Below are positions 21,841 through 60,780 of a stretch of DNA of 64,000 bases, in pieces (position 1 is the stretch's first letter; each line of letters starts with the position of its first letter). The DNA comes from Centroscyllium fabricii (lineage: Eukaryota), in assembly GCA_051313645.2 (NCBI GenBank), contig JBNRSN020000010.1:10788001-10852000 (forward strand), given 5' to 3'. The position numbers and the translations under genes were made by a program. Below the pieces are notes generated by a model. It saw only the letters and a program-made list of their open reading frames with translations. It did not search any database and was not told the origin of the DNA.

Positions 21841-23092
21841 ATCTATTTTAAATAAATGATCACTATCTCGAGCCACATTTACAAATTAATGTCCTGGTGA
21901 TGTCAGCTTGATTGGTCATGTCACGGAGCCGTTCTTCAGGCATCTGCATCATGCAAATCAGTTACTGTTTGCTGCACGTGCAGCACCTCACTTCTGCACA
22001 GATATTGACATCGCAAGATGATGCAGCATGAGACTTCTGATATTGACCCATTTCTGTCCTTTATGGCTATCTGGATGTGGAGGTGTATGATTTGGTCTCC
22101 CCCTGCATGGTCATGAAGATTCGGTTAGTGGCCAAGCTTTCAAATATATTCTTCTCATTTTTCACTATCAACAAGTACACAAACATCGCCAACTGAAAGC
22201 AACTAATTATTTTCACTACACTTTCCTGACTTTACTAGATTGTGAATGTCTAAGAATCCATATGTGAGATCTTCGATTCTAAACGATTCCACATTTACCC
22301 ATATTGCTTGGAGTAATTAAATCTCCAATCGTCACAAGCAAGAATCATGTCAGTTACTGTATCTTAAGGACCAGTTTACAAAGTATAATTAAAAGCTACA
22401 TAGACAGCAGGTCCGGCATTGGACAAATTAGTCTCCTGCATCTCATCTTTTATATGGAAGCAAGTCATCCCCAGTTCCACGGGACTGCCAATGAAGAGAA
22501 GAATAATTAAATGTTATAATGAGGGAAAAGTTCAGTACCGCCCCATTTTGGGATTGATTATCAGCCATGCGCACTGTTTAGCGCCTGGTGTTGATTATCG
22601 CTTCCGACACAAAATTGTGTCCGATCGCCCGTGGAGGTGATTGGAGCTGTTAATCAGTTGCTTCCATCCTGTCTTAAGGCGCAAATACCAAGGAGCGAGG
22701 CGCTACCTCGGAGCGCTGGTGAAGTTCATGTGATGTCAGTCAGCAATTGAACACAGACTCAATGGGGCAAGAAGGGCACAGACACATCTACTGTTAGTTA
22801 TGGGGTAACACTGGGACAGGAGGGGAAATCTCACATCTAGTGTCAGTGTAGGGCTAACACTGGGATAAGAATGGCACGGTCACATCTAGTGTCAGTGGAT
22901 TGTTAAATCTGGGGCAGGAGGGACACGATCACATCTAGTGTAATTCTAGAATTAACACTGGGAGTTGCGGGTACGGTTTAATCTAATGATAACTCTGGGA
23001 CAGGAGGGGCGCGGTCAGAGCTAGTGTAGGTGTAGGGGTAGCACTGGGAGTTGAGGGGCACGATCACATCTAGTGAATCTTTAGGGGTAACA

Positions 23093-23494
23093 TAGTGGCG
23101 GCACGGTGGCATAGTGGTTAGCACTGTTGTCTCACAGCACTGGAGACCCGGGTTCAAATCCAGCCTCGGGTGCTATATGTGTGGAGTTTGCACATTCTCC
23201 CCGTGTCTGCGTGGGTTTCCTCCGGGTGCTCCGGTTTCCTCCAACAGTCCAAAGATGTGCGGGTTAGGTTGATTGGCCAGGATAAATTGACTCTTAGTGT
23301 TAGGGTGATTGAATGTGTGGGGTTACGGGGATAGGGTGGGATATGTGTTAGTGCAGGCTCGATATGGATCAAGGGATATTGGGCGAGGGCAGGGGCGGGG
23401 TGCTGGGTTTGGATGATCAGGCATGATCTCATTGAATGGCGGAGCAGGCTCGAAGGGCCAAATGGCCGACTCCTGCTCCTAGTTTCTATGTTTC
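23093..23494 (+). mobile_element. HE1-type V-SINE, full length
   Basis: tRNA-like head GGCACGGTGGCATAGTGGTTAGCACTG..GGTTCAAATCC; V-domain TGTGGAGTTTGCACATTCTCCCCGTGTCTGCGTGGGTTTCCTCCGGGTGCTCCGG; CR1-shared tail; TSD TAACA. Confidence 0.92.
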
Positions 23495-23676
23495 TAACAC
23501 TGGGAAATGAGGGGCCCGGGCACATCTAATGTCAGTATACGGTTAACGCTTTGACAGGACGGAACCGTCCCATCTAGATTCAGAGTAGAGGGAAAACATT
23601 TAAAGGAGGTGCAATCTCACATCTTGTGTGAGTGTAGGAGTAGCACTGGCACTGGAGGGTTATGGTCACAGATAAT

Positions 23677-24499
23677 GGGCCAGGTTTTCCTCTGTGCAGG
23701 TTAGTGCGTGCGCTAGGACCCTGCGGACACCTATCGCACGCACCAACATCGCACAGAAGCTGCTCCCTGACTTTCCTCCCCATTCCTGCGCTGCGTGGCA
23801 GTCCAGCCACGCTGGGTGCGCAGTGAATGCCCCGCCCACAGATCCCAAATGTAAATAAAAAACGCCCCCAGATCCCCAATTTAAATTTAAAAATGCGCAC
23901 AGATCCCGAGTCGGACCTTTGTGAGAGCAGGGAAGTGCGGTGCTGCACTCACAGACTCGGCGGGGAGCAGCGCGGGCAGAGCAGCTTCTCAGAGGAAGAA
24001 AAGCATGGTAAGTCTGCCATTTTGTCCTCTTAGATTTTTTAATAGCTATATAGTTAAAAATTTCAGAAATTTAACTTTAAAAATTAGCGATGGGAAACAG
24101 GCAAATTAACTTAAAATCGGATTTGTAATTTTTTTTCAAAAACTTTAACTTAAAATTTTAACGCTACCGATCTGGCCACATTACTCCCAAAAACTGTAAA
24201 AAATTAAAATTAAAGTAAAAAAATTAACTTACCTGCTTTAGTAACTAAATCCTGTCCCTCACTCACGAGTTTACTGCTGTTTTTTCTGGGTGCAGCTTGT
24301 GGGCCAGTTGCAGACGGAATCACTCTCCAAAAATCACCCTTCTGGGTGCAACTCACTCCTGCGTTTGATGCTGAGTGCCCTTCTCCCTCAGCAGAGGAAA
24401 TTCTCGTTCGTGGGAATCCCCCGTGCTGCACACCCACGGGGCATTTCGGACCCGCATCCGTGCGTGTGCAGCTCCTCTGGAGCAGATAAAATCTGGCCC
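23677..24499. mobile_element. ~820-bp PIF/Harbinger-type MITE inserted in the satellite
   Basis: TIRs GGGCCAGGTTTT / AAAATCTGGCCC; 3-bp TSD AAT (23674-23676 / 24500-24502); the satellite monomer is restored when the element is removed. Confidence 0.82.
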
Positions 24500-26447
24500 A
24501 ATATAAGTGTATTGATATCACTGGTACATGAGTGGCATGGTCATGTCTAATCTAAGTGTAGCGTTAACACTGGGACAGTAGGGGCGCTGTCACCTCAAGT
24601 GTGAGTGTAGGGGTAACACTGTGACAGAAGGGGCTCGATCAGTTTTTGTGTAAGTGCAACGGTAAAACTGTTAAAGGGGGGGTACCGTCAAATATTTTGT
24701 AAGTGTAGGGGCAAAAGTGGGACATGTGTGGAACCGTCTAATCTCGTGTCAGTATAGCGGTAACCCTCGGACAGGAGTGCTACTGTCACACTGTAAAGCT
24801 GGGACAGGAGCCACACGGTGATATCTAGTGTAACTGTTGAGGAAGCATTGGGACAGGAGGGGCACGGACACATCTAGTGTCAGTTTAGGGGAAGCACTGG
24901 GGAAGGAGCAGCAGCGGCACATCTAGTATCAGTTTTGGGTAGCACTTGGACAGGAGGGGCAAGGTGACATCTAGTGTAAGCGTAGGGATAAAAAATGGGA
25001 CAGCAGTGACACGGTCACAAGCAGTGTCATTATAGTGGTTACACAGTGAGAGCTGGGACACTGTCATATTTCGTGTCAATGTATGGCAGCGCTGGGATTG
25101 GAGGGCCATGTTCACTTCTAACGCAAATGTAGGTATAACACATGGACAGGACGGGCACGGATAAATTGTAGTGTCAGTTGTATAGGGAACACTGGGACAG
25201 GAGGGATTATACACACATATCGTAAATGTATAGGACAAACATAGAGGCAGGAGGGCACTGTCACATCTAGTATATGTTTATGGGTAGCACTGGGGCAGGA
25301 GGGGCATGGAAACATTTAGTATCATTTATGGGGAAGTGCTGGCACAGGAGAGGTATGATCACATCTAGTTTCAGTGTAGGAGATGCTGGGACAGGAGGGT
25401 CAATATCACATCTAGAGAGAGTTTATGGGTAACACTGGGAAGGAGGGGCGCAGTCACATCTATTGTAATAGTAGGGGTAGCACTGGCACAGGAGGGCGAT
25501 GGCCGCATTTTGTTTAAGTATAGGGCAAGCGCTGGCACAGGAGAGGTACCATCACATCTAGTTGCAGTTTAGGGGTAGCTGGAACATGACGGTCAAGATC
25601 ACAACTAGTGACAGTGTATGGTTAAAACTGGGACAAGAGAGGCGCAGTCACATCTAGTGTAATGGTAGGGGTAAAACGGACAGGAGAAACACGGTAAGAT
25701 CTAGTGGCAATGTCGGGTTAACACATGGAGAGGAGGTGCACTGTTACATTTCGTTTCAGTTGGTCACATCTAATGTAAATGTCGGGGTAGCACTGGGACA
25801 GGAGGAGTCCGTTCATATCTAGTTTAAGAGCAGCGGTAACACTGGGTAAGGAGAGGCATAGTTACATCTAGTGCAAGTGTAGGAATAACAATGCGACAGG
25901 AGGGTCATGGTCATATATAGGGTCAGTGGTTTCGTAACACTGGGACAACGGTGGTACGTTCACATCTTGTGCAGATGTAGTGGAAACACTGGTACAGGAG
26001 GGGAACAGTCACACCTGTTGTCTGTATATGTGTTGCACTGCGACAGGAGAGACATGGTCGCATCTACTGCAAGTGTAAGGGAAACACTGGGACAGGAGGG
26101 GCACAGTCACATCTCGTGTGAGTTTAGGGGCCGCACTGGGATAGGATGGACACGGTCACATCTCAATTCAGTGTCGTTTTCCCACTGGGACAGGAAGGGC
26201 ACCTTTATATCTAGTGTCAGTGTAGGTTAAACACTGGGACAGGAAGGGCATGGTCACATCTTGTGTTATTGTAATGGTAACACATGGACAGGATGGGTAC
26301 AGTCACATCTAGTGAAGTTGTCGGTGTAGCACTGGGAGAATAGATGAACCGTCACATATAGTGTATGTGTAGGGGTAGCACAGGGACAGGAGTGGCACGG
26401 TCACATGTAGAATATTTTTAGGGGCAGCACTGCGACAGGAGGGACAT

Positions 26448-27590
26448 ATATCAGAGATACATATATCAGAATGCTGTTTATTGACTACAGCTCAGCATTC
26501 AACACCATCGTCCCCAGCAAATTGTCTACCAAACTCCTCACCCTCGGCCTGAACACCTCCCTCTGCAACTGGACCCTGGACTTCCTAACCAACAGACCAC
26601 AGTCTGTGAAGTTAGGCAACCTCACCTCCCCCCCCTTACCCTGAACACGGGGGCCCCACAAGGTTGTGTGCTCAGCCCCCTCCTCTACTCCCTCTTCACT
26701 CACGACTGTGCGGCTTTCCATGGCTCCAACACGATCATCAAGTTCGCGGATGACACCACGGTGGTTGGCCAGATCACCAACAACGACGACTCAGCCTACA
26801 GGGATGAGATCCAGTACCTTGTGGGTTGGTGTGCCGACAACAACCTGGCACTGAACACCAAGAAAACGAAGGAGATCATAGTGGACTTCCGGAGGACTGG
26901 AAGCAGAAGACACACACCCATCTTCATCCAAGGGGCTGAGGTGGAAAGGGTGTCCAGCTTCAAGTTCCTCGGGGTCCACATCTCGGAAGATCTCTCCTGG
27001 TCACTAAACACCTCCTCTCTGGTTAAGAAGGCCCAACAGCGCCTGTACTTCCTTAGGAAGCTGAAGAAAGCCAGGCTGTCATCCGGCATCCTCTCCAACT
27101 TCTACCGCTGCACAATAGAAAGCATACTGACAAGCTGCATCACTGTCTGGTATGGTAATTGCACTATCTCGGACCGGAAAACCCTGCAGCGGGTAGTCAA
27201 AACTGCCCAACGAATTACCGGTACACAGCTACCGTCAGTGGAAAGCACCTACCTCAAACGCTGCTTACGGAGGTCTATGAACATTATAAAAGACCCCACA
27301 CACCCCAGCCACAGTCTGTTCGCCCCTCTGCCCTCCGGGAGACGCTACAGAGCAATTTGCACCCGCACGACTAGATTTCAGAACAGCTTCTTCCCCAGGG
27401 CTGTCAGCCTCCTGAACTCTAAAAAGAAACTCCGGTACCTGCACGCCTGATAATGAACTTTACTGTATGCAATTTATTTATGTAATTTATTTCTTTTGTC
27501 TACACTACTCTGGGGAGAGTCGAGTCTTTGTCTCGTTGTATTGTACTAGTACTCTGCAATGACAATAAAACTTGAATTGAGTTGAATTGA
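26448..27590 (+). mobile_element. Rex1/Babar-type LINE 3' fragment
   Basis: [63 protein letters not shown]; one frameshift in a C-run at ~26630; AATAAA plus (TTGAA)n tail. Confidence 0.9.
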
Positions 27591-29344
27591 ACATGGTCAA
27601 ATCTAGTATCAGTTTAGATGTCGCACTGTTAGAAGAGGGCCTCTGTCACATCTAGTGTAAAGGTAGGAGTAGCACTCGGAAGGGAGTGGCACGGTAACAG
27701 CTAGTGAAAGCTTAGCGATAAGGTTGGGACAGGAGGGGCAATGTCACATGTTGTGAAAGTGTATCGATAGCCCTGGGAGTGGAATGCCTCGTAAACATCT
27801 TCTGTAAATGTTGGGCTAGCACTGGGACAGGATGTGTACATTCACACCTTGTGACAGTCTAGGGCTAATGCTGGGACAGAATGTTACGGTAACAACTTGT
27901 GACATTGTAGGGGTCACACATGGAGAGAATGGGTACAATCACATCTAGTGTAAATGTAGTTGTAGCACTAGGACCGGAGGTGCACTGTCAAATCAAGTGT
28001 CAGTTTATGAGTAGCAAAGGGACAGGAGTGGCACGTTCAGATGTAGTGTAATTGTAGGGGCAACACTGAGACAGGACGGACACGGTCACATCTAGTATCA
28101 GTGTAGATGTCGCACTGGGCGAGGGTGACCTCCGTCACATCTAGTGTAAAGGTAGGCGTAGCACTGGGAAGGGAGGGGCACGGTAATAACTATTCTAATT
28201 ATGTGGTAACGCTGGGACTGGAGGGGCAATGAAACATGTAGTGACAGTGTATCGATAGCCCTGGCACTGGAGGGCGTCACTCACAGTTAGTGTAAATGTT
28301 GGGGTAGCACTGGGACAGGAGATGCTCGTTCACGCCTTGTGTCAGTCTAGGGGTAAGGCTGTGGCAGGAGGGGCACGGCCACATCTAATGTAAATGTCGG
28401 GGTAGCACTTGGACAGGAAGGTTACATTCAGATCTAGTATCACTGCATAGGTAACACTGGGGCAGGAGTGGTAGGGTCTCATCTTGTTTCATTGTACGGA
28501 AAAACACGAACAGGAAGGGTACGCTCAAATCTACTGCAAGGGTACGATTGCCTCTGGGGCAGGTGAGAACGGTTATATCAAGTGTACATGCAGGGGTAGC
28601 ACTGGGACAGGAGGGGTACAGTCACATCTAGAGTCAGTGTACCGATAACACATGAATGGGAGAGGCACCATCACCTCTATTGCAACGGCACTCTATACAC
28701 TGGGCCAGGCGAGGCACGGCCTCATCTATTGTAAGTGTCGCTTTAATACTGGGGCAGGAGGGGCAATGTCATATTTTGTGTCTGATTATGGGTAGCACTA
28801 AACAGGACTTGCATGGTCATATCTAGTGTACGTGTAGGGGTATCAGTGACAGAGTTGAGTCACGATCTCATTTATTGTGACTGTAGCTTCAACACTGGGA
28901 AATAAGGTGTACAGGTCACTTCTAGTTTGACTGTCGGTGTAAAACTGGTAAATGAGGGGCAAGGTCACATCAAGTGTAAGTGTATGTTTTGCACACGGAC
29001 GGGAGAGTCATGGTCCGATCTAGTGTAAATTTAGGGGTAGTGCTGGGAAAGTTGGAAAATCTTCAAAACTTACTTCCGTGTAGGTGTAGCACGAGAATAG
29101 GATGGGCAACTAGTATCAGTGTCGCATTATCACTGGGAGAGCAATGGCAAAGTCACATCAAGTGTAATAGTAGGGGTAAAACTGGGATATGTGGGACACG
29201 TTACCATCCTTTTTCAGTGCACGAATAGCACTGAGACAGGAGGGAAGCGGTCACATCTTGTATCAGTGTAGGGTCAACACTGGAACAGGAGGAACATCGA
29301 CACATCCACTGTTAGTGTAGGGGTATCTCTGCGACTGGAGGGCC

Positions 29345-29604
29345 TCAGTCCAAAGATGTGCGGGTTAGGTTGATTGGCCATGATAAATTGACCCTTAGTG
29401 TTAGGGGAATTGAACATGTGGGGTTACGGGGATAGGTTGGGATATATGTCGGTGCAGGCACAATAGGTATCGCGGGATATGGGGACAGGGCAGGGACAGG
29501 GTGTTGGGTTTGGATGATCAGCCATGATCTCATTGAATGGCGGAGCAGGCTCGAAGGGCCGAATGGCCTACTCCTGCTCCTATCTTCTATGTTTCTATGT
29601 TTCT
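29345..29604 (+). mobile_element. HE1-type SINE, 5'-truncated
   Basis: Highly similar to the 3' half of 23093-23494; (TTTCTATG)n tail. Confidence 0.88.
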
Positions 29605-31886
29605 ACATCTGGTTTAAATGTAGGTGTAACACTGGGACAGGAGAGGGCTCTGTCAATCTAGTGTAATTGTAGGCGTAACACAGGTAGAGAAGGGGCGAAA
29701 TCACATTTTATGTCAGTGCATGTGTAGCGCTGGGACGGGAGGGCATCTGTCACATCTAGTGTAAATATAGGTTTGCAATGGCTCAGGAGAGGTACAATCA
29801 CATCTGGTGTAATGGTAGTTTAACAATGGGACAGGACTGTTATGGTCATATCTAGTGTTAATGTTGTGGTATCTCTTTGAGAGGAGGGGTACGGTCAAAA
29901 CTCGTGTCAGTGTTGGGGTATCACTGGGACAGGAGGGCCTCTGTCACATTTAGTGTAAATATAGGGGTTGCGCAGAGATTCGACGAGAACGGCCACATCT
30001 AGTGTAAATGTAGGTGTAACACTGAGACCGCAAGGGCACGAACACTTCCAGTGTCATTGCAGGGGTACAATTGGGCTGTGAGGGCCTCGGCCACATCTAG
30101 TGTAAATATAGGGTTACAAATGGGATAGGAGTGGCATGTTCATATATCTTGTCAGTGTATGGGTAAGACTTGAACTGTAGAATCTCAGTCACAGTTAATG
30201 TAATTGCAAGGGTAACACTGGATCAAGAATGGCACTGTCATATTTCGTGCCTGTGTATAGGTAGCACTAAACAGGATTGTTATGTTCACATATAGTGTAC
30301 CTTTAGTTGTAGCACAGGAATAGCTGGGGAATGGTCAGATCTAGTGTAAGCGTAGGACTAACATTAAGGCAGGAGGGCATGCTTAAACCTAACCTATGTT
30401 TATGGATAGTACTGGGACAGGATGAGGAGCTCATATCTAGTTTAACAGTGGGAAAGTGGAGGCACAGTTACATCTACTGTAAGTGTAGGATTATCAATCC
30501 GACAGAAGGTACATGATCATATCTAGGATCAGTGGAGGGGAAACGCTGGGACAGGTGTGGCACGGTCACAGCAAGTGCACTTGTAGTGGTGTCACTGGTT
30601 CAGGTGTGGCATTGTCACATTTCGTGTCTGTGTATGGGTAGCACTGCGACAGGAGATACATGGCCACATCTAGTGTAAGTTTAAGGGTAGCACTGGGACA
30701 GTAGGGACACGGTTAGGTAGAATATGAGTGTAGGGGATGCCCTGGGACAGGATGGGCAATGTCAAAACTCATGTCAGTGTAGGGGTTCCTCTGGGAGAGG
30801 AGGGACACGATCACATCTAGTATATGGGTAGGGGTAGCAATGGGACACGAGGGGCACATTCACATCTAGTATGAGCGTATGGGTAGCACTGGGACTAGAT
30901 GGGAATGGTCAAATCTATTGTCAGTGTAGGGTTCTCACATGGGACAGGAGAGACACGGTTACATCTAGTTTCAATGTAGGCGAAACACTGGGACAGGAGG
31001 GGTTGTTCACATACTGAGTCAGTGTAGGGGTAACACTTGGACAGGAGGGGCATAGTCACATCTAGTGTAAATGGAGGGGTAGCAGAGGGAGGTGCACTGT
31101 CACATATAGTGAAAAGTTAGGGATAGCACAGGGAAAGGAATGGTACGTTCACATATAGTGTAATAATAGGTGCAGCACTGCGACAGCAGGGATACGGTAA
31201 ATCTGGTATCAGTGTACGTGTCGCACGGGGCCAGAAGAAACTCAGTCACATCTAATGTATATGTATTTGTGGCACTGAGACAGGAGGGGCACAGTAACAT
31301 CTTGTGTATGTTTCGGTGTAATGCTGGGACAGGAGGGGCACTGTCACATGTCCTGACTGCATCTGGGTAGCCCTGGGACTGGAGGGCCTCGTTCACATCT
31401 AGTTTAAATGTTGGTGTAGCACTGGGATAGGAGGGGCTCATTCACATCTTGTGTCATGTTATGTGTAATGCTGGGAGAGGAGGGGCACGGTCGAATCTAA
31501 TGTAACTGTGGTGGTAGCACTTGGACAGGAAGGCTACAGTCAGATCTAGTATCAGTGTATGGGTAACACTGGGGCAGGAGATGTACGGACTCTTCTTGTT
31601 TCAGAGAGGTGGGAAAACTTGAACAGGAGGTGTACGCTCACAGTCTAAGCGTAGGAGCATCACTGGGACAGCAGGACACCTGCCATATCTAATGCACGAT
31701 TAGGGTGGCACTGGGACAGTAGGGGTACCGTCACGTCCAGATTCATCGCAGGGATAGCACAGGGACGGGAGAGGCACCCTCACATCTAGTGTAAGTGTAC
31801 AGTTTACACTGGGACAGGCGAGGCAGGGCCTCATCTATCGTAAGTGTAGCTCCAACACAGGGACAGTTGGGACACGGTCACATTTA

Positions 31887-34293
31887 TCATAGAATCATAG
31901 AATCATAGAAACTTTACAGTGCGGATAAAGGCCATTCGGCCCATCCAGTCCGCACCGGCCCAGGAAACTCCTCACTATACTAACCCCATTTGCGTGCACC
32001 TGGCCCATAACCCTGTATGTTACGGTCCTTCATGTGCTGGTCCAAATATTTTTTAAATGTTGCGATGGTTTCTGCCTCCACCACCCTTACAGGCAGGGAG
32101 TTCCACACTTCCACCACCCTCTGAGTAAAGAAATTTCTCCTTACCTCCCCCCTAAACCTCCCCCCCTAATCTTGAATCTATGTCCCCTAGTACTTGACTC
32201 TCCCACCAAGGGAAACAATGCCCCTTTATCCACCCTATCGTGTCCTCTCATGATCCTGTACACCTCAATCATGTCACCCCTCAATCTTCTCTTCTCCAAG
32301 GCAAACAACCCCAGCCTGTCCAGCCTTTCCTCGTAGCATAAGTCCCCCAGACCAGGTATCATCCTGGTAAACCTTCTCTGCACCCTCTCCAGGGCAACCA
32401 CATCCTTCCTGAAGTGCGGTGACCAGAACTGCACACAGTACTCCAGCTGAGGTCTCACCAGCGTGTTATACAAGTTTAACATTACCTCCCTAATTTTGTA
32501 TACTATGCCCTGGTTAATAAAGGCCAGAATTCCGTATGCCTTCTTAACCACCTTGTTTACGTGTCCAGCAACCTTCAGGGAGCTGTGCACCTGTACCCCA
32601 AGGTCCCTCTGTTCCTCGGTCCTACCTAACGTTTTTTTGTTCATGGTATATTCCCTTACCCCATTTGGTCTGCCGAATTGTATGACCTCGCATTTCTCTG
32701 GGTTGAACTCCATTTGCCATTTTTCTGCCCAACTAACCATTACATTTATATCTTCCTGGAGCCTTTTACTATCTTCATCGTTATTTACCACCCTTCCAAT
32801 TTTCGTATCATCAGCAAATTTGCTGATCGTACCCCCTACTTCCATGTCCAAATCATTGATGTATACTAGAAACAGTAAGGGTCCCAAAACCGATCCTTGG
32901 GGGACACCGCTGGTTACTGGTTTCCAGTCACAGAAGCAGCCCTCTACCATTACCCTTTGTCTCCTATCCCCCAGCCAATTTTGAATCCACTGTGCCAAGT
33001 TGCCCTGTATCCCATGTGCTTTAACCTTTGTTATTAGTCTCCTATGTGGGACTTTATCAAAAGCCTTGCTGAAGTCCATATACACCACGTCAACCGTACT
33101 CCCTTCATCCACCCTCTTTGTTACCTCTTCAAAAAATTCCAAGAGATTAGTTAGGCACGACTTACCTTTGACGAAGCCATGTTGACTATCCCTTATCAGA
33201 CCCTGCTTTTCCAAATGCAGACTGATTTTGTCCCTCAGAATTTTTTCCTTTACTTTCCCCACTACAGATGTAAGACTGATTGGCCTATAGTTACCCGGTT
33301 TGTCCCTACTACCCTTTTTAAACAGGGGTACTACATTAGCCGTTCTCCAGTCCTCGGGTACATCCCCTGACGCGAGAGAGGACCTGAAAATTTGAGACAG
33401 GGGGCCCGCAAGCTCTTCCCTGGCCTCGAACAGCAGCCTGGGGAACATCGCGTCCAGCCCTGGTGATTTGTCTACCTTTAAGCTTCCCAAGATTTCTAGT
33501 ACTTCTTCCCTTGTAATGGTAATATCCTCAATTACCCCCCCTACACTCTGTCCGATTACGATGTCGGTTCCGTCCCTCTCTCTTGTGAATACTGAAGAGA
33601 AAAATTCGTTTAGTACCTCCCCCACCGCCTCGGGCTCGACGCACAGCTTTCCGCTATCGTCCTTAATGGGCCCCACTCATTCCCTCGTGATCCTTTTGTT
33701 TTTTATATAACTGTAAAATGCCTTAGGGTTATCCTTGATTTTGCCGGCCATTGCAATCTCATGACCCCTCTTGGCTTTTCTTATCTCCTTCTTTAATTCC
33801 CCCCTATACTTCTTATACTCCCCTAGCGCCTCCTCAGTTTTTAGCCGTTTATATTCATTGAAGGCCCCCCTTTTTTTCTTCATTAATTTACATATATCCC
33901 TAGACATCCAAGGTTCCCTTTGTTTACCTCCCCCGCCCTTGATTTTTGCAGGAACATGTTCCTCCTGTATCTTCCCGACCTTCCCTCTGAAGGCCTCCCA
34001 CTGCTCTGATGCAGATCTTCCTCTGAGAAGATGGCCCCAGTCTACTGTGGCTACATCGCGCCTAATTTTAATGAAATCCGCCTTCCCCCAGTTTAGTACT
34101 TTTACCCCTGGTCCATTTTTATCCTTCTCCATTACAATCTTGAAACTAACTGAATTGTGGTCGCTATCCCCGAAGTGCTCCCCCACTGTTACCTCCTCTA
34201 TCTGCCCGTCTTCGTTCCCAAGTATTAGGTCTAGTACCCCCCCCCCCCCTTGTAGGTGACCCAACATATTGCTTCAAAAAACTCTCTTGGCTG
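31887..34293 (-). mobile_element. CR1 LINE, 5'-truncated, young
   Basis: ORFs 33677..34267 and 32141..33676 are in one frame separated by a single TGA; EN tail LDLILGN..GDSDH and full RT (GVPQGSVLGP, KFADDTK); (TTCTATGA)n tail; CATTTA at both junctions. Confidence 0.95.
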
Positions 34294-37200
34294 CATTTAG
34301 TGTAAATGTAGCTTCACACAGGGACAGGAGGGGCATAATTCATATCTAGTGTGATTGTCGGTGTAACACTGGGAAATTAGGTCATATCCAGTGTAAGTTT
34401 ATGTGTAGCACAGGGACAGGGTGGGCATGCTCATATCTCGTGTAAGTGTAGATGTAACGCTTTCAAAGGTGGGTTACGTTCACATCTAGTTTCATTGTAG
34501 GGGTAGTATGGGAGAGGTGAGTCAATGTCATTTATATTGTCAGTTTTGGGTTAATGCTCCGTCAGGAGGGGCACAGTCAGATCTACTGCACTAGTAGGGG
34601 TAAAACCTGGACATGTGTGGCACGGTAGCTTCTTTTCGTAGAATAGGGGTAGCACTGGGCCAGCAGAAAAGGAGGTTACATCTTGTGTCAGTGTAGTGTT
34701 AACACTGTGACAGAAGGGACATTATCACCTAGAGTGTCAGTGTAGGTGTAACACTGGAACTGGAAGGCCTCGGTTGCATCTAGTGTACATGTGGTTGTGA
34801 CAGTGGGACAGGTGGGAAACGGTCACATCTAACTCAGTGCAGTGGTAACACTGGGGCAGGAGGGGGATGGTCACACGATTTTTAAGTGCAGAGGTAACAC
34901 ATAGACCGGAGGGGCACTGTCAAATTTCATCTGGGTCAAATCTGGTGTAAATGTATGGGTAGCACTGGGACAGGAGGGGCATAATCACATCTATTGTCTG
35001 TGTAGGGTAACACTGTGAGAGGTGATCCATGGTCACATCTATTGTAAGTGTAGTAGTAGCATTGGGACAGGAGCGGTATTATCACATCTAGTGTCAGTGC
35101 AGTGGTAACACTGGGACAGGAGGGTGTCGGTCACATCTGGTGTAAATAAAGGTGTGCCACTGGGATAGGAGGTGCATGACCACATCTAGTATCAATATAG
35201 GGGTAACACTGGGACAGGAGGGACACCGTCACATCCAGTGTCAGTGTACTGGTATCAATGAGACTGGAGGGCCTCGGTCAAATCTAGTCTAAATGTAGGA
35301 ATGACAATGAGACACGGTCTGTAGGGATACTATTGGGACTCGAGGGCCTCGGTCAAATCTAGTGTAAATATTTTATTAGTACTGGGATAGGAGCGCACGT
35401 TCACATCTAGTTTCAGTGTAGGGTTAGCAATGGGACAGAATGGACATAGTCATATCTTGTGTACATATAGGAGTAGCTCTGAAAAAGTAAGGGGACGGTC
35501 TAATCTAATGCCAGTTTAGTGGCAGCACTGGGACAGGAGGGTCAAGGTTATAATTTTAGGGTCACATCTAGTACCAGTGCAGGGATAACACTGATAGAGG
35601 AGTGACACAGTCACAAGTAGTGTAATAAAAGGGCTAAAGCTAGGACGTGTGAGACACGGTAATATCTATTGTCAGTGTAGGCGTAGCACTGGGAGAGTCG
35701 GAACACGGTCATATCCTGTGTCAGTGCACTCGGACAGGAGGGACATCGTGACAATCAATGTCACTGTAGTGGTAGCACTGGGACTGGACGGCCTCGGGCT
35801 CATCTAGTGTAATTGTATGCGTAGCACTGCGTCAGGAGGGATACATTCACATGTAGGTCAGTGTAGGGGTAACACTGAGACAAAAAGGGCACGGTCACAT
35901 CTAATGTCAGCGTGGCGATCACACTAGGACAGGAGGGGCACGATCTCAATTAGTGTAATTGTATAGGTAAAACTTGTACAGGAGGAGCATTGTCAGATTT
36001 CCTGTCTGTGTAGGTTTAGCAATTGGACAGGCGTGCCTCGGCTACATCTAGTGTAAATATAAGGGTAGCACTGCGTTTGGAGAGGCACATTCACATCTAG
36101 TGTCAGTGTAGGTGTATTACTGGTACAGGAGGGAAACGGTCATTTCCCGTGTCAGTGTAGGGGTAGCACTGAGACAGGAGGGGCACGGTCAAATATACTG
36201 TAAGTGTACGTGTAACACTAGGATAGGCACGAAGTTATTGTATGGGTAGCACTGGGACTGGAGGACTTCGTTCACATCTAGTGTAAATGTTGGGGCAGCA
36301 CTGGGACAGGAGGTGCACGTTCATATCTAGTATCAGTGTAGGAGTATCACTGGGAGAGGAGGAGAAGGGTCCCATCTTGAGTAAGTGTAGGTGTAGCACT
36401 GAGAAAGGATGGAAACGGACAAATCTAGTGTAAGCGTAGGGGTAACACTGGGGCAGGAGAAGAACGGACATATCTAGTGTTAGTTTAGGGGTAGCACTGC
36501 GACAGGAGGGGCACCATCACATCTACATTTAGTGCAGGGAAAACACTGGGACGGGAGACGATCCATCAAATATACTGTAAGTATAGTATTTGCACTTGGA
36601 CAGGCGAGGCACGGTCTCCTCTAATGTAAGTGGAGCTTCAACAGTTGCACATTAGTGGCAAGTTCACATCTAGTGTACGTGTAGGGGTAACAGTGGAACA
36701 GGAGGGGCAGTGTCATGTCTCGTGTCTGTGCATGGTTAGAAGTAAACAGGAGTTGAATGGTCACATCTAGTGTACATTTCGGTCTATGGCTTGGAACGGT
36801 GGGATACGATCAAAACTAATGTAGCTTTAGGGGTAACACTGGGAAAGCAGGGGCACATGTCTCATCTAATGTGTGTATAGGGGTAACACTGGGAAATGAG
36901 GGGCAAACACATATCAAGTTTAAGTGTATCTGTAGCATAGGGACAGTCTGGGCAAGGTCTTATAAAATGGCAGTGAATGGGTAACAATGGACCAGGAGTG
37001 GCACGGTCAAATCTAGCTTCAGTAGCTGGGTAAAAATGGGACAGGACTGGTACGGTCAAACCTAGTGACAGTGTAGGGTAACACTGGGACTTATGGGGCA
37101 CAGTCAAATCTAGTGCAATAGTTGGGGTAAAATTGGGACATGTGAGACACGGTAACAACTTTTTTCATTGTTGGGATAGCACTTGGACAGGAAGGACAAT

Positions 37201-38169
37201 GTCACATCTTTTGGAAGTGTAGTTTTACCACTGGGACAGGAGGGGCATGGTCACATTTACTGTAAGTGTAGCCATATGGCAGCACTGCTGCAGGAGGTAC
37301 ATGGTCACAACTACTGTATTTGCAGTGGTTAAACTGGAACAGAAGTGACACGGTCACATACAGTGTCAGTTTAGTGCTGTCACTGGGACAGGAGGGACCC
37401 GGTCACAACTTCTGTCAGTGTATGCTTAACACTGCGACAGGATGAGCATGGTCACGTCTAATGTCAGTTTACGGGTAGCACACGGAAAAGAGGGAAATGG
37501 TCACATAATTTGTCAGTGTAGGGGTAACACTGGGACAGGAGGGACACCATGACATCTGGTGTCAATGCAGCTCTACAATGGGAGGGGCAAGTTTACATCC
37601 AGTGCCAGTGTAGGGTTAGCACTGGGACTGGAAAGGCACGGTCACATCAATGTAAGTGTAGTCATAGAACTGGCGCAGGAGAGGGACCGTCACATTTAAT
37701 GTAAAGGTCGAGGTACTAATGTGCAGGACGGGCTCACGCACACTTAGAGTATGAGCGCTCTTCCACTTATACCGGAGGAGCAGTCTCGATAGTAGTGTTC
37801 TTGTAGTGCTACCACTATTACTATTGCAGCACGTTTAACTCCAGTATAGGCATTGCAGGAGTATCTGAGGTGCACGGGCACATATAGTATAAGTGCATTT
37901 TGCCAGTATTCCAGGGAGGGGTGGATGTTACTCAAATCTAAATGTTGGGTACCACTAGTACGGCAGGAGCACTGTCACCTCTACTGCTGCCAGACTGGGG
38001 TCATCACCATTATTGAAATATTTGTTTTGCCGTATGTTCTGTGGGAGTTGTTGCTCTAGGAGTGAATCAAGGGCAGGGTCATGGCAATCATTGCCTGGGT
38101 TGCTGCCTTCACCAGGTCTGTGGGATTAGTGGCATCACTAGTACTGCTCGATTGCACTTCCTACTGGTT

Positions 38170-38429
38170 AACAATATACTATTTCTGTATTTTGCAAAAC
38201 TACCCAACAACAAATTTCACATATTTCTCTTAATCTGACGTGTCAGATATAAAAACAATTTACATGAGCCTATTTGTTTAATGACTGTAACTAATGCAAA
38301 TTATGACTTAACCTGATTGACTCAGTGGAGAATTCACTTGTGGATAAATATACGTTCCCTCCCAATGCCTCAGCCGTGCGCCAGTTAGAGTTATTTTGTT
38401 CTGACAGAATTCATCCATTCTCACAGAGA
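38170..38429 (+). promoter_or_regulatory. Conserved upstream region of GPCR paralog 1
   Basis: Aligns with the reverse complement of 58295-58550; shared blocks TTTCTCTTAATCTGA, AATGACTGTAACTAATGC.AATTATG, TGTGGATAAATATA, CAGCCGTGCGCCAGT; octamer ATGCAAAT at 38294-38301. Confidence 0.7.
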
Positions 38430-39626: not shown

Positions 39627-39899
39627 CAACAGAGGGGAGGAGGCTATAAAAGGCGCCGAGGAGCAAAGCCCAGGACACAGAGGCAGCGCGGGCTTTTCAA
39701 AAAGCCAGGGGAGCAGCGCGACTGAAGCGGCCCTAGGAGAGGGCACGGAGTCGGAAGCGGCGGCAGCAACAGAGGGGAGGAGGCTATAAAAGGCGCCGAG
39801 GAGCAAAGCCCAGGACACAGAGGCAGCGCGGGCTTTTCAAAAAGCCAGGGGAGCAGCGCGACTGAAGCGGCCCTAGGAGAGGGCACGGAGTCGGAAGCG
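39627..39899 (+). repeat. Two tandem 140-bp 5' UTR monomers, each with CTATAAAAG
   Basis: 39627-39766 repeated at 39767-39899 (second copy 133 bp), no differences seen. Confidence 0.92.
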
Positions 39900-44269: not shown

Positions 44270-45439
44270 AAGGGAAGCTGGAGGGATCGGGCGGCACGAC
44301 TTGTAGGCCGGCTGGCCTGTTCAAGTGCCGTAAATGTCTATTGTCTATTGTCTATATCGCCACTGAAACTGGAATAATGTTGAAGTTTTTGAGCTGTTTT
44401 CAAAACCCGTGTATTTATTTCGCCACCCAGAGGAAATTCAGAGAAGAGCTGAATAAAATGTTGAAATACCCCTGGATATTAATTCTGGGATTAGTTAGAA
44501 AATCAGGATCAAAGGAATAAATCAAACTAAATCTCTTCGTAACTAATCTCCGTTTGAACTCATTTTTCACCGTTGAACGTGCTTCTTTCTGATAGTGTGA
44601 AACGTGGGAGAGAAGTCGTGTGAACATTTTATCCATTTTGCAGCGTGCGTTTGGTGTTTCCAATGTATAATGTTTCATGCTTCTTTCATTGAGTAAATAT
44701 TTTCTGTTGCTGCAAATTTAGAACTTTGCACGTTCAGCGATCAATGATAACAATGATGAGCTTCAGCAGTGGACATGTGGTCAAAAGAGGAATGACCTTA
44801 CACTGCAGATACAGGGATCGGGCGCACCAGTTTATAATCATCAATAAAGTTTAATTCGGTGCAGAAACAATCAAAGGTTTTGCGATCAACGATATTGCTA
44901 ATTTCCTGGAAGTTTGGTGTCAATATTTCAGGCGTGTGTCTCTCTCTATCGGCAACATTCCTCATTGACAAATTGAGCGGACTCTTGTCACGTCATCAGT
45001 TTTAGAATGCAGAAATGAGTCGAAACTCGGCTCTTCGATGTGACCTTTCACCTCTTGTGTCCCTGATACTGAATTAAAATCTCGATTGTGCGTTGACTGG
45101 TGTCTCTCATTCAGCACAAAGTTGGAGTCTGCTCGTGTATTGTGCTGTCGATAAAAATATAATAAGTAATATTATTGATATCCTGTCGCAATTTTTCTCC
45201 CCAAAATTGTAAAGGATAGTAACAGGAATGTGTTTTTTTACAAATGTGTTTATTATTACAGTTGTTGTAAGTTATCTGTTAAAAACAGTGCCATAAATTA
45301 GATAAAATATAAATAATATCCAGTAATCTGTGTTTGGCTGAACACTTGCAGACTGTCAGAAATAATCTTTGGTAATTATAGTTTTATTATGCTGTTACAC
45401 ATTGTTTCAAATAATGATTGGAAAATACCAGCAACTTTG

Positions 45440-56886: not shown

Positions 56887-58294
56887 CTAGTTCAGCTTTC
56901 TTTCATGTTTAACCAATCTCAAAAGGAGTGTCCATGGAGATTTCAAAACCTTTTTCAGCTCTTCTCTGAATTTCCTCTGGGTCGCTGCATAAATACATGT
57001 GTTCGCACAGGAGCTCAAAAGCTTCAGCAGATCTCCGGTTTCAGTGGCGATATAGGCTGGGATTGTGCGGTCTCCTCGGTAATAATTGACGTTTGTCATT
57101 CTAGTAATTAAAAAATTCACGGCTGTTGTCATCCACAGCAATATAAAACTCCCCGAAATAGCGAAGAGGAAAATGATGGATTTCCTTCGGCTTTCCATCT
57201 CTGGATCGCAGAGGTTCACAGTGCTCTGTCCCCGGAGTCCCCTGCGGGCTCTGCTGGCCAATAATATACGTCTGACCGTCAAACAATTAAACAAGGCCAT
57301 TAAGGTGAAGGGAAGCCAAACGCGCAATATGGTGTGAAACCAGAGAGACACTTCACCGTGAGGCGAGGAAAAAAAAGCCAAACTGTTCCGGCAGCCCCAA
57401 TGCAGGTTGTTAATTATTTGCTGCGGTTCAAATGCAAAAAAAACGGGAATGCTCTTTAAAAAGATCAGAACCGAGATCGCTGTTATAACCGCGGCCGCAG
57501 TTCTCTCGGTGCAATAACGTACTTTGAACTTCTGCCAACAGATAATTACACATCGGTCAAATGTGAAGGAGACGGTGAACCAAACAGACAAATCGAAACT
57601 GACAGCTTTCATGTATAGATTGAACATACACATGGGAGTAAGGGAGAGGAATGAAAATGGAAATTGATAACTGAGAATATAATACACTATTACATTGAAG
57701 ATCATGACCAGTAGATCTGCTGTTGCCATGGCCACCATGTAGACAGAGATGCATTTGGAAAGGCCGCAGTTTCCTCGAGTGAGAATCACAATTGTCACCA
57801 AGTTCGCTGTAAGAAAGAGAGGGGAGAAATAATTTACCGCTGTCTGATTGAAATGTAAACGGAGATCCCTGCTGACAGCATCTTGCTCCATTCACTGATT
57901 ATCAGCACGGAGCCGTGTGAGAACATGATTGGTATTGGAGCTAATGCCTGGGAAACCCACCCACAAATTTTAAAGAGCTGCGTCAGCGCTCGCTCTGCAC
58001 GGGGTGAGAAGACGATCTGGAAATCCGCTAAAATCCTTGTGTTGGAGCTGCAAAGAACATCATAACATTAGCAATGTTATGGCATTAAGGGAGCCGTGGG
58101 AACTGTGGACACGCGGTTCGATGTGATATGCTGACATCTGTAGAACAGTTACCCTATCCAGCATACGACACGAACATTGAGACAGTAAACACCGATTATC
58201 AACAAGCAGGTTACAATGGCTCACCGGGGGCACCGAAAGTTGCGAGAATCGGGTAGTAAATCTCTTTTATCAGCAGTATAGCTGGTCGCCCCAT
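56887..58294 (-). CDS. GPR139/GPR142-like class A GPCR, paralog 2, intact (329 aa, 2 exons)
   Basis: Exon 1 58294-58225 (MGRPAILLIKEIYYPILATFGAP, GTGAGC donor); exon 2 57806-56887 (ANLVTIVIL, YMVAMATADL, SVWFTVSFTFDRC, DPEMESRRKSI, ANTCIYAATQRKFREELK); 7 hydrophobic segments; 990 nt, frame preserved. Confidence 0.93.
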
Positions 58295-58550
58295 TTTCTG
58301 TGCGAATGGATGGATTCTGCCGGAGTTAAATGTGTCTGACTGGCGCACGGCTGATACAATGGAAGTGAAGCTATATTTATCCACACACTAATCCGCAAGG
58401 GTATCAATAAGGTTGAAACATAATTGGCATTAGTTACAGTCATTGAACAAATTGACTAAGGTAAGTTTTTTTTTGTTTATACTTCAGATTAAGAGAAACA
58501 TATGAAATTGTTATTGTACAGTTTCAAAAAAACGCACAATACAGACATTC
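58295..58550 (-). promoter_or_regulatory. Conserved upstream region of GPCR paralog 2
   Basis: Reverse complement aligns with 38170-38429. Confidence 0.7.
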
Positions 58551-58739
58551 TTATAAATGGAAACTTGGAAACTGCCAATACTGGAGCTGACCCTATTCCA
58601 ACAGGACTGGTGGAAGCAATTACACTGGTAGCCATCGCCCAGAACCTACCCTTCACTGAATCCTACTGCTCCAATTCCTCCAGAACAGGTGCTGAAACAA
58701 ATTCTGGAATATTGGAGATGGCCACAGATCTGCAGCATT

Positions 58740-60780
58740 AGATGTGACCGTGTTGCTCTGGTAGAAGTATCTCCCAAAACTTACACTTGACGTGAACGTG
58801 CTCCTCCACTACTAGAAATCACCTACCCTGACACTCTCGTTGACCGTGTTCCTCCACTAGTAGTGATAAATTGCATTAGCACTACTTGTCACCGTGCACC
58901 TCCACTACTAGTGATAACCTACACTAACACTAGTGGTCACCGTGCTCCTCCACTACTAGTGATAACCTACACTAACACTAGTGGTCACCGTGCTCCTCCA
59001 CTACTAGTGATAATCTACACTAACAGTTGTGGTGACCGTGCTTCTCCATTACCAGTGATAACCTACGCTAGCATTAGAGTTGACGTAGATCCACAGTTTT
59101 ATTTATATTGTGCACCTACAGTAGCACTTGGCATTGAACACCAAGAAAATAAAGGAGATCATAGTGGACTTCCGGAGGACTGAAAGCAGAAGACACACCC
59201 CCATCTTCATCCAAGGTGCTGAGTTGGAAAGTGTGTCCAGCTTCAAGTTCCCCGGGGTCCACATCTCGGAAGACCTCTCCTGGTCATTACACACCTCGTC
59301 TCTGGTTAGGAAGGCCCAACAGCGCCTTTACCTCCTAAGGAAGCTGAAAATAGCCAGGCTTTCATCCGGCATCCTCTCCAACTTCTACCTCTGCACAATA
59401 GAAAGCATACTGACAAGCTGCATCACAGTCTGGTATGGAAATTGCACCATAGTGGACCGGAAGGCCCTGCAGCAGGTAGTCAAAACTAACCAACGAATTA
59501 CCGGTACCCAGCTACCGTCAATTGAAAGCATCTACCTCAAACGCTGCCTACGGAGGTCTCTGAACATTATTAAAGACCCCGCACACCCCAGCCACAGTCT
59601 GTTCACCCCCCTACCCTCCGGGAGACGCTACAGATCAATTCGCACCCGCACGACTAGATTTAAGAACAGCTTCTTCCGCAGGGCTGTCAGCCTCCTGAAC
59701 TCTAAAAAAACTCCGGTACCTGCACACCTGAAAATGTACTTTACTGTATGCAATTTGCATGTAATTTATTTGCACTACTCTCGGGAGCGGCGGGTCTTCG
59801 TCTCGTTGTATTGTACTAGTACTCTGCAATGACAATAAAACTTAAATTGAATTGAATTTAATTGAGATGACCACGCTCCTCCATTATTACTTAGACACTA
59901 AACCTACAGTAGAGATGACCGTGCACCTCCGGTACTACTTATACACTACACCTACAGTAGAGATGACCGTGCTCCAACGGAACAATTTATACACTGTAAC
60001 TATTGCAGAGTTGACCGTGCTCCACCAGTACTATTTTACCCTACAACTACAGTAGAGGACTGAATTGAGATGACCGCCCTCCGCATTTACTATTTATATT
60101 CTACACCTAAAATGAGATGACAATGCTGCTCCAGTACTATTTATTTACTACAACTACAGTAGAGATGATTTTGCTCCACATATACTATTAATATCCTACA
60201 CCTACAGCAGAAATGACAGTTCTCCTCCTGCACTATTTATACCCTACTAATGCATTAGATATGACTGTGCTCATTCTGTACTATTTGTGTCCTGCAGCTA
60301 CAGTAGAGATGACCGTTCACTTCCTGTACTATTTAGATACTACACCTACAGTAGAGGTGACAATGCTCCACCGGTACTATTTAGAACCAACACCTACAGT
60401 ACCTTTGGCCGTTTTTCTTCTGTGCTGTGTGTAAACTACACCTATAATACAGTTGAATATGCTCCTCCTGTACTATTTATATTCTAAACCTACAGTAGAT
60501 ATGACCACGCTACTCTTATACTCGGGACAGTCTATATCTACACCAGGGATGGTCCGGCTCCTGTATACTAGCGGTGCACTAAACATAAAGAAGCGTGGAC
60601 CATGCTCCTCCACCTCTTGTCTTACGTCTACACATACATTGGTGCTGCCAGTCCTTCCCCAGTACTAATGGTAAACCATAATAACAGTAAAACTGACCGT
60701 GCTCATCCAATATTATTGACAACCTATAATACACTAGAGTTAACCCTGCTCCTGTGGATTACGGTTGCTACTACAGCTAA
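58740..60780 (-). repeat. 48-49-bp tandem repeat, same family as 22765-37990, inverted
   Basis: Plus-strand units GTGACCGTGCTCCTCCACTACTAGTGATAACCTACACTAACACTAGT are the reverse complement of the CTAGTGT.AGTGTAGG..GGAGGAGCACGGTCAC consensus. Confidence 0.85.
59125..59865 (+). mobile_element. Rex1/Babar-type LINE 3' fragment (same family as 26448-27590)
   Basis: 234-aa ORF highly similar to 26668..27450; same AATAAAAC plus (TTGAA)n tail. Confidence 0.9.

What the first reader, a model, noticed from the sequence alone, without database searches (positions are those of the whole stretch)
22765..60780. Mirror-image cassette: satellite array, conserved promoter and two-exon orphan GPCR
Both GPR139-like genes have the same layout in opposite orientation: a 48-49-bp array ending ~440 bp before the ATG (37990/38430 and 58740/58294), an alignable upstream region, a 70-nt exon 1, a phase-1 intron with conserved blocks, and a 920-nt exon 2. 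Similarity drops right after the stop codon. The duplicated unit thus seems to include the satellite. Inference: the satellite may act as a recombination substrate or regulatory platform for birth-and-death expansion of a GPR139-like receptor repertoire. Mammalian GPR139 and GPR142 respond to aromatic amino acids, so a chemosensory or nutrient-sensing family is plausible but untested.
Basis: partly seen in the sequence, partly recalled or inferred. Interest (0 to 1): 0.72.

Follow-up and report, generated by a model that had tools for sequence, protein, structure and literature searches.

The report
Satellite-tagged shark orphan receptor family
A short tandem repeat lies just upstream of nearly every gene in one branch of a family of hundreds of orphan receptor genes in this shark-type genome; it most likely rode along as the genes were duplicated, while the family itself is likely an overlooked chemical-sensing repertoire.

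Summary
The layout is real, but gene A is split by a 4.7-kb CR1 LINE; gene B is intact. The repeat-gene link holds genome-wide: 15 of 15 and 44 of 44 exact hits of two repeat variants in 7.2 Gb lie upstream of, and co-oriented with, a family gene or fragment; 66 of 73 promoters of one clade carry it, 0 of 10 outgroup promoters, none in 195 kb downstream. The 47-49-bp units are dimers of a 26-bp unit found at sister genes. The array is not the duplication boundary: flanks are shared beyond it, arrays are collinear and decay at the flank rate. It does host out-of-register exchange (one chimera, 9-11 kb length changes). Array-free clades expanded too. The genes are not GPR139 orthologues; they form an elasmobranch family (about 280 places scored, about 1,500 candidates) with a shared 25-bp promoter element, and one array-free clade shows pocket dN/dS near 9. 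Best reading: hitchhiking satellite on a birth-and-death, likely chemosensory, receptor repertoire. Expression and ligands are untested.

The parts
18644..22764 (+). Flank beyond the far end of array A, shared with four other cassettes
   Evidence: 78-81% over 750 nt next to the far end of four other arrays; 1.5-2.7 kb; 4.2 kb at 80% with the 9.89 Mb copy
22765..37990 (+). 49-bp degenerate satellite array upstream of gene A, interrupted by insertions at about 23112-23479, 23673-24499, 26449-27594, 29350-29604 and 31887-34293
   Evidence: TRF; 194 profile hits, all + strand; block map
37991..38429 (+). Proximal upstream region of gene A (likely promoter and 5' leader)
   Evidence: aligns to B at 57-79% per 100 columns
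38271..38295 (+). Family-wide 25-bp promoter element of gene A (-159 from ATG); TATA-like box at 38343
38430..38499 (+). Gene A exon 1, 70 nt, phase-1 donor
38500..38872 (+). Gene A intron, 373 nt
38873..39626 (+). Gene A exon 2, 5' part (TM1 to ECL3)
   Evidence: tblastn-type match to residues 1-254 of gene B exon 2, 67%
39627..44351 (+). Full-length CR1-type LINE inserted in gene A exon 2; 140-bp perfect tandem duplication at its 5' end
   Evidence: ORF1 Lipase_GDSL_2 E 2e-16, ORF2 RVT_1 E 7e-35 and Exo_endo_phos; TRF; high contig depth
44353..44520 (+). Gene A exon 2, 3' part (TM7, helix 8, stop)
56887..57806 (-). Gene B exon 2, 920 nt, open frame
   Evidence: Pfam 7tm_1 E 5.6e-16
57807..58224 (-). 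Gene B intron, 418 nt
58225..58294 (-). Gene B exon 1, 70 nt, phase-1 donor
58295..58739 (-). Proximal upstream region of gene B
   Evidence: 40 of 40 scored genome hits lie in the receptor clusters on C2, C800 and C1
58429..58453 (-). Family-wide 25-bp promoter element of gene B (-159 from ATG); TATA-like box at 58381
58740..60780 (-). 48-bp satellite array upstream of gene B, split by a LINE fragment at about 59126-59861

Best explanation
The array lies inside large duplicated segments together with the promoter and the two-exon receptor gene, and it most likely arose once, as a 26-bp tandem repeat at the 5' edge of one ancestral promoter, then hitchhiked through the birth-and-death expansion of that receptor clade. 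Shown: fixed side, strand and distance; one clade only; 47-49-bp units as dimers of the 26-bp unit; shared flanks beyond both ends; neutral-rate decay of the 49-bp arrays; length change from one unit to about 180 kb. Inferred: out-of-register crossing over changes array length and now and then swaps flanks between neighbours, but it is a by-product and not the engine of the expansion. Inferred: transcription is set by the 25-bp element plus TATA-like box that all clades share, and the family works as a ligand-diversity (likely chemosensory) repertoire.
For: Association: 15 of 15 and 44 of 44 exact genome-wide hits lie within 30 kb upstream of and co-oriented with a family gene or fragment (positions; unscored neighbours checked). 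66 of 73 clade promoters with at least 1 kb seen have a co-oriented unit ending within 1 kb, 0 of 73 the opposite strand, 0 of 10 outgroup promoters, 0 hits in 195 kb downstream of 116 exon-2 copies, 0 in 12 control 10-kb stretches. Single origin: array-bearing genes form one clade (FastTree support 0.998 with other sharks' proteins); 26-bp dimer against the 47-, 49- and 48-bp units beats 300, 299 and 295 of 300 shuffles. Passenger: five cassettes share the far flank, three more share another; flank, promoter and exon 2 give the same grouping in those five; 3' flanks are shared within subfamilies; the whole A-B pair is duplicated over about 45 kb at C2:9.87-9.90 Mb; collinear arrays differ by 20-24% where the flank differs by 21%, and by 11-13% where neighbouring DNA differs by about 12%; per-position rates follow base type, G/C 0.10-0.21, A/T 0.08-0.14. 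Dispensable: array-free clades also hold many open genes; the 7 clade promoters with no unit within 1 kb all have stop-free exon 2. Promoter element at -137 to -162 in 70 of 71 promoters, also in array-free clades; 76 exact 22-mer hits, 0 in the reversed control.
Against: The array has stayed at the same spot across subclades that differ by 0.53-0.58 at fourfold sites and whose split predates the major shark lineages, with fresh amplification of new unit types in each subclade; pure drift may not be enough to explain that persistence. One cassette (C2:9.892 Mb) switches its closest relative at a 9-kb deletion inside the array (246:278 against 190:98 shared sites, Fisher p 2e-7), so exchange in arrays does reshuffle cassettes. 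Neutral sequence decay does not exclude a role of repeat length or chromatin. Per-position rates are heterogeneous (chi-square 257, 48 df), which I assign to base composition without a formal model. In the array-bearing clades mean pocket dN/dS is 0.46-0.83, so the strong diversifying signal is not in the window's own clade. No expression data.
Confidence: 0.68

Rival explanations
1. The array is the recombination substrate that drives expansion and reshuffling of this clade: misaligned arrays of neighbouring cassettes cross over and duplicate or delete whole genes.
For: Chimeric cassette with a switch at an intra-array deletion; 11-kb, 99%-identical tandem duplication inside the array at C2:10.05-10.08 Mb and a gene-less array fragment upstream of the 10.10 Mb gene; all arrays co-oriented with their genes, as such crossovers need.
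Against: Only 1 clear chimera among the 9 cassettes compared; a second candidate (10.100 Mb) dissolved when the middle was fetched. Duplicated segments run far beyond arrays. Array-free clades expanded without it. The 11-kb duplication could be an assembly join of two alleles.
Confidence: 0.14
2. The array is a cis-regulatory or chromatin platform (silencing seed or multimerised factor site) that tunes how often each receptor gene is switched on.
For: Fixed end 330-560 nt before the ATG in 65 of 66 cases; persistence over a deep split with repeated re-amplification; a shared core promoter downstream. Multimerised motifs raising olfactory receptor gene choice is recalled, not tested.
Against: Neutral-rate decay with no conserved block; heavy retroelement insertion into and in front of arrays; open genes with displaced or single units; length from one unit to about 180 kb; absent from outgroup clades with the same promoter element.
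Confidence: 0.13
3. The receptor family is an immune or endocrine ligand-sensing repertoire rather than a sensory one; the array is a passenger either way.
For: Pocket hypervariability in a young clade fits an arms race with microbes as well as odorant tuning; a catshark olfactory library listed no GPCR among its 50 most specific genes (passage in PMC11979771).
Against: Compact two-exon genes in large clusters with a shared short promoter and many pseudogenes is the pattern of vertebrate chemoreceptor families (own knowledge); sharks have few known olfactory receptors (PMC6368271). No expression data either way.
Confidence: 0.25
4. The association is chance: a regional or genome-wide satellite happens to lie near the genes, or the arrays are assembly artefacts.
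For: Only the first 100 of 2,488 hits of the 26-bp pattern were listed; some identical copies on small contigs may be uncollapsed alleles.
Against: Strict side, strand and distance; unit type follows the gene tree; 8 forward against 2,480 reverse hits; no hits in controls; degenerate, TE-interrupted, collinear arrays are not what misassembly makes.
Confidence: 0.01

Closest known systems
GPR139 / GPR142 (human orphan class A receptors activated by L-Trp and L-Phe; PMC12208981 passages, PMC5430874 abstract)
   Same: Best hit among solved structures by sequence (32 bits for gene B, 60 bits for a 28-sequence profile) and by fold (rank 1, from a low-confidence model, pLDDT 57); H5.43 and W6.48 mostly kept.
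   Different: Distant only; F3.33 in at most 2 of 46 and N7.38 in at most 1 of 46 array-clade proteins (the TM7 column may be off by one); hundreds of copies against single genes; tree places the family with other orphans.
Single-copy GPR139-related orphans of salamanders, coelacanth and teleosts (possibly the 'GPR210' group of PMC6504862; identity by accession not tested)
   Same: Nearest non-elasmobranch relatives, 32-33% identity; the salamander gene is sister to the family, 99/99; similar short N-terminus.
   Different: Low copy; this genome has its own separate orthologue of the coelacanth gene (62%, C712), so the expanded family is a paralogous lineage.
Vertebrate chemoreceptor repertoires (OR, V1R/ORA, TAAR, V2R, MRGPR, FPR) - features recalled; shark counts from PMC6368271
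   Same: Large clusters, birth-and-death, pseudogenes, compact genes, shared short promoter motif, pocket diversification in one clade.
   Different: Different branch of class A; expression and ligands unknown; one clade carries a gene-linked satellite; known shark repertoires are 5-8 genes (OR, ORA, TAAR) and 40 V2R in catshark.
Repeat arrays upstream of variable gene cassettes (trypanosome VSG 70-bp repeats, immunoglobulin switch repeats, rDNA spacer repeats) - recalled, not from a call
   Same: Tandem repeat fixed on the 5' side of each member and co-oriented; exchange inside the array occurs.
   Different: Here the array is not the cassette boundary, shows no sequence constraint, and no somatic rearrangement or enhancer role was shown.

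Membership tests
Class A (rhodopsin-like) GPCR | 7tm_1 domain and hallmark residues (D2.50, C3.25, D3.49-R3.50, P5.50, W6.48, N7.49, Y7.53) | tested here: met
   Pfam 7tm_1 59 bits over cut-off 30.5; six hallmarks in 46 of 46 or 45 of 46, P5.50 in 44 of 46 array-clade proteins
GPR139 orthologue | High identity to GPR139 and single copy | tested here: not met
   32 bits to the human chain; nearer relatives are other orphans; about 280 places scored in this genome. True GPR139 was not in my tree.
GPR139 orthologue | Trp/Phe site F3.33, H5.43, W6.48, N7.38 (PMC5430874 abstract) | tested here: not met
   H 35 of 46, W 45 of 46, F at most 2 of 46, N at most 1 of 46
GPR139 orthologue | Same intron position in TM1 and synteny | not tested
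   Phase-1 intron in TM1 is shown for this family; the GPR139 gene structure is only recalled
Chemosensory receptor repertoire | Large clustered family with birth-and-death turnover | tested here: met
   pseudogenes; species-specific clades
Chemosensory receptor repertoire | Diversifying selection on the ligand pocket | tested here: inconclusive
   Strong in the array-free C1377 clade (dN/dS 9.4 pocket, 5.2 other extracellular, 0.76 intracellular), below 1 on average in the four array-bearing clades (0.46-0.83)
Chemosensory receptor repertoire | Shared promoter motif across members | tested here: met
   25-bp element at a fixed place in 70 of 71 promoters
Chemosensory receptor repertoire | Expression in sensory cells, sparse or one-receptor-per-cell | not testable with these tools
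   no RNA holder listed
Chemosensory receptor repertoire | Activation by external chemicals | not testable with these tools
   needs a cell assay
Satellite DNA | Head-to-tail units in arrays of kilobases to over 100 kb, with higher-order units | tested here: met
   8 of 8 samples across C2:14.214-14.396 Mb hold the 26-bp unit
Satellite DNA | Concerted evolution (homogenised units) | tested here: inconclusive
   26-bp arrays mostly 72-88% matched; 49-bp arrays 61-74% and collinear between paralogues, so frozen
Recombination cassette with a repeat as boundary (VSG type) | Homology between cassettes starts in the repeat and ends at the gene's 3' end | tested here: not met
   shared flanks beyond both ends
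Recombination cassette with a repeat as boundary (VSG type) | Exchange between paralogues inside the repeat | tested here: inconclusive
   1 chimera and 2 large length changes among 9 cassettes

The most novel reading that the evidence does not exclude
This is the missing large chemoreceptor repertoire of sharks and rays: several hundred to about a thousand receptors from an orphan GPCR branch, driven by one shared promoter element and expressed one or few per sensory cell, with the gene-linked satellite setting, by its length or chromatin, how often each gene of its clade is chosen. The repertoire part alone I put at about 0.4; the probability given is for the whole statement.
Probability: 0.1. 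Interest if true: 0.92.

Novelty: new variant of a known kind. Interest (0 to 1): 0.68.

Why it matters
Open-access papers describe sharks as poor in olfactory receptors (8 OR and 40 V2R genes in catshark, PMC6368271) and relatively poor in GPCRs (passage in PMC8455134). A family of hundreds of mostly open receptors, hidden under the automatic label 'probable GPR139', with a shared promoter element and strong pocket diversification in one clade, would change that picture and makes a long-standing question (what sharks detect chemicals with) testable from existing tissue RNA of catshark or bamboo shark. The satellite gives a natural series of one repeat family kept at one promoter position through a deep gene radiation, from a single unit to about 180 kb, in which passenger, recombination and regulatory roles can be told apart.

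Tried and rejected
Expression: no RNA holder listed for gene B; no evidence either way. Laying four contig sets on gene A listed no joint across the LINE, so whether an uninterrupted allele exists stays open. A 32-nt consensus pattern found 0 hits; the arrays are too degenerate. '1 TAG' flags looked like an amplified pseudogene but are the natural stops. The 39/41/60/25-bp repeats near the C1377 clade looked like a second upstream satellite but adjoin a LINE about 5 kb before exon 2; exon 1 was not found for those genes, so they are not in the promoter tally. An octamer motif in gene A's promoter is present in only 2 of 71 promoters and was dropped. The 10.100 Mb cassette looked chimeric but is a gene-less array fragment followed by a normal cassette. 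Branch-wise substitution counts could not be made, so selection rests on pairwise counts. The intron control gave 0.11-0.14, higher than the 0-5% per window seen for four pairs and than dS 0.037, probably through repeats and indels; against that higher yardstick pocket pN is still about twice as large. The predicted structure was low-confidence (pLDDT 57) and was not used to define pocket sites. Resemblances of the repeat to T-box, nuclear-receptor and switch-region motifs, and of the promoter element to a forkhead site, are recalled and untested. Earlier scan notes: none relevant. No complex prediction was run.
Full report
Observation. The coordinates hold. Arrays of 49-bp units (22765-37990, +) and 48-bp units (58740-60780, -) end about 445 nt before ATGs at 38430 and 58294. 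Both genes have a 70-nt exon 1 and a phase-1 intron (373 and 418 nt), and align at 74% over 1.75 kb. Gene B exon 2 is 920 nt and open, a class A GPCR. Gene A is broken: a full-length CR1-type LINE (39627-44351) sits in exon 2 before TM7. Contig depth over the LINE is roughly a hundred to ten thousand times that over the gene, so the element family is abundant; no joint across it was listed, which leaves allele status open.

Setting. The window is C2:10.788-10.852 Mb of a 7.2-Gb genome. The 120 best database hits listed of 1,001 are all shark or ray proteins, most named 'probable GPR139'. Three protein searches scored 129, 131 and 131 places out of about 1,470-1,520 first-look candidates each; by hand count they cover about 280 distinct places, most without internal stops, and one search lists about 50 further places that I did not check. 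Some identical copies on small contigs may be alleles, and the candidates were not scored, so the true number lies somewhere between a few hundred and about 1,500.

Is the link more than chance? Yes. An exact 20-mer of the 49-bp unit has 15 hits in the genome and a 27-mer of the 47-bp unit has 44, with 0 in reversed controls. Held, and after fetching the seven places with no scored gene, all 59 lie within 30 kb upstream of a family gene, pseudogene or fragment on the same strand. Of 85 distinct exon-1 loci, 83 had at least 1 kb upstream in view: 66 of 73 in the array clade have a co-oriented unit ending within 1 kb, 0 of 73 have one on the other strand within 1 kb, and 0 of 10 outgroup promoters have any. 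Five of the 66 were found through the repeat itself; without them it is 61 of 68. In 65 of 66 the array ends 332-560 nt before the ATG. There were no hits in 195 kb downstream of 116 exon-2 copies or in 12 control stretches of 10 kb. Two loci do carry reversed units further upstream. Of the 7 misses, 4 have units displaced further upstream, and non-array sequence shared among unrelated loci, likely retroelement ends, abuts several of these promoters.

One repeat family. Unit length follows the gene tree: 26 bp in one subclade, 48, 49 and 47 bp in the others. A dimer of the 26-bp unit aligns to the 47-bp unit better than 300 of 300 shuffles, to the 49-bp unit better than 299 and to the 48-bp unit better than 295. 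Array-bearing genes are one clade that also holds catshark, horn shark, whale shark, sevengill, sawshark and sawfish proteins (support 0.998), and the 26-bp and 47-49-bp subclades differ by 0.53-0.58 at fourfold sites. A single old origin is therefore the simplest inference; I could not look at other species' DNA. Length runs from one unit to about 180 kb (8 of 8 samples over C2:14.214-14.396 Mb). The 26-bp pattern has 2,488 hits, of which only the first 100 were listed, all in the clusters.

Boundary or passenger? The 750 nt beyond the far end of array A match the far flank of four other arrays at 78-81%, over 1.5-2.7 kb; three further cassettes share another flank. Flank, promoter and exon 2 group the five cassettes alike. 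The 3' flank is shared inside subfamilies: 107 of 120 pairs above 85% coding identity share at least 200 nt, 0 of 337 pairs below 75%, so the drop after the stop in A versus B only reflects their different subfamilies. The whole tail-to-tail A-B pair recurs, inverted, over about 45 kb at C2:9.87-9.90 Mb with both genes broken. Paralogous 49-bp arrays are collinear and differ at the rate of neighbouring DNA, with rates set by base type rather than by a motif block. Against a pure passenger: the 9.892 Mb cassette changes closest relative exactly at a 9-kb deletion in its array (Fisher p 2e-7), and the 10.048 Mb array holds an 11-kb, 99%-identical tandem duplication (possibly an assembly join). 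So arrays do undergo out-of-register exchange, but clades without them expanded too, and the 7 promoters lacking a near unit all head stop-free exon 2 copies.

What is conserved instead. A 25-bp element (consensus TGTTTGTTAARTGACTGTAACTAAY) is the best match at -137 to -162 in 70 of 71 promoters, about 72 nt before a TATA-like box, including clades at about 50% protein identity; 63 of 71 match with at most 5 mismatches, 0 of 71 shuffles better than 8. Its 22-nt core has 76 exact hits, 0 in the control, on contigs that carry the clusters, one of them (C14) new and with an exon 1 downstream. Which factor binds is untested.

The receptors. Human GPR139 is the best solved relative but a distant one. 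The nearest non-elasmobranch proteins are low-copy orphans of salamanders, coelacanth and teleosts at 32-33%; the salamander gene is sister to the family (99/99; true GPR139 and GPR142 were not in the tree), and this genome has a separate 62% orthologue of the coelacanth gene. Ten further clusters sampled down to 41-48% identity were all sharks or rays. Of the four residues that GPR139 needs for Trp and Phe (PMC5430874, abstract) two are kept and two nearly absent. Pairwise counts on 32 pocket sites chosen by recalled generic numbering give dN/dS 9.4 in the array-free C1377 clade (24 genes; 9 non-overlapping pairs: pN 0.234 against pS 0.036, p 3e-47), 5.2 at other extracellular sites and 0.76 inside, but 0.46-0.83 in the four array-bearing clades. 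Synonymous differences are also raised at pocket codons (0.084 against 0.027), so gene conversion may contribute. Sliding windows show 10-17% in TM2-TM3 against 0-5% upstream for three of four pairs.

Mechanism. Shown: anatomy, association, single clade, shared flanks, neutral decay, occasional exchange, shared promoter element. Inferred: one origin at a promoter edge, inheritance in segmental duplications, length change by unequal crossing over, transcription from the shared element, and use of the family as a ligand-diversity repertoire, most likely chemosensory. Not shown: expression, ligands, any effect of the array.

Literature. Ten searches of the open-access library gave no paper on this expansion, the repeat or the promoter element; subscription journals are not covered. 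Seen: PMC11979771 passages (its supplement could not be read and may bear on expression); PMC8455134 one passage on few GPCRs in cartilaginous fish; PMC12208981 passages; PMC6504862 passages and one supplement row on GPR210; PMC6368271 abstract and section 5; PMC5430874 abstract. The proteins are already in databases under automatic names.

Verdict. A real, clade-wide gene-linked satellite, most likely a hitchhiker with some recombination activity, on a large and apparently undescribed elasmobranch receptor repertoire. New variant of a known kind; interest 0.68, carried more by the family, its promoter element and its pocket diversification than by the satellite.

Noticed in passing
window 39627-44351 (+): Full-length CR1-type LINE with both ORFs open (GDSL esterase ORF1; endonuclease-RT ORF2) and a perfect 140-bp tandem duplication at its 5' end; abundant near-identical copies by contig depth.
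   Followed up: partly
G000 C1377, C670, C1144, C975, C1233, C291, C800:43-45 Mb (loci L034, L037, L039, L040, L091-L120): Young array-free clade, 95-99% identical over 7 kb, with a hypervariable extracellular face (pocket dN/dS about 9). Repeats of 39/41/60/25 bp and a LINE lie about 5 kb before exon 2; exon 1 not found.
   Followed up: partly
window 38271-38295 and 58429-58453; 76 exact hits in G000: Family-wide 25-bp promoter element about 72 nt before a TATA-like box; begins with a forkhead-like stretch (recalled motif, untested).
   Followed up: partly
G000:C2:14213694-14396286 (L221-L228): A 26-bp array of about 180 kb upstream of one receptor gene, interrupted by insertions.
   Followed up: partly
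G000:C712:37816637-37817614 (L262): Single-copy orthologue (62%) of the coelacanth GPR139-related orphan, apart from the expanded family.
   Followed up: no
G000:C2:10.05-10.08 Mb (L147, L241, L242, L148): 11-kb, 99%-identical tandem duplication inside an array; recent unequal exchange or an assembly join.
   Followed up: partly
L089 (C2:6970000-6979999) and L046: Reversed 26-bp arrays directly beyond the gene-proximal array.
   Followed up: no
window 26843-27591 and 59126-59861: LINE fragments 90% alike sit in both arrays in opposite orientation relative to the repeat, so likely independent insertions.
   Followed up: no
window 2041-2862 and 3199-4020: Two nearly identical open frames 1,158 nt apart, a local tandem duplication.
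   Followed up: no
window about 13000-15100: Frames resembling a degraded LTR-retrotransposon protease/RT region (by eye; no search run).
   Followed up: no
L237 (C1266:150000000-150009999): An unrelated 42-bp satellite fills the whole 10-kb control stretch.
   Followed up: no
window 38393-39328: Contigs of three of four runs differ from the assembly at about a dozen sites in gene A, likely the second allele.
   Followed up: no
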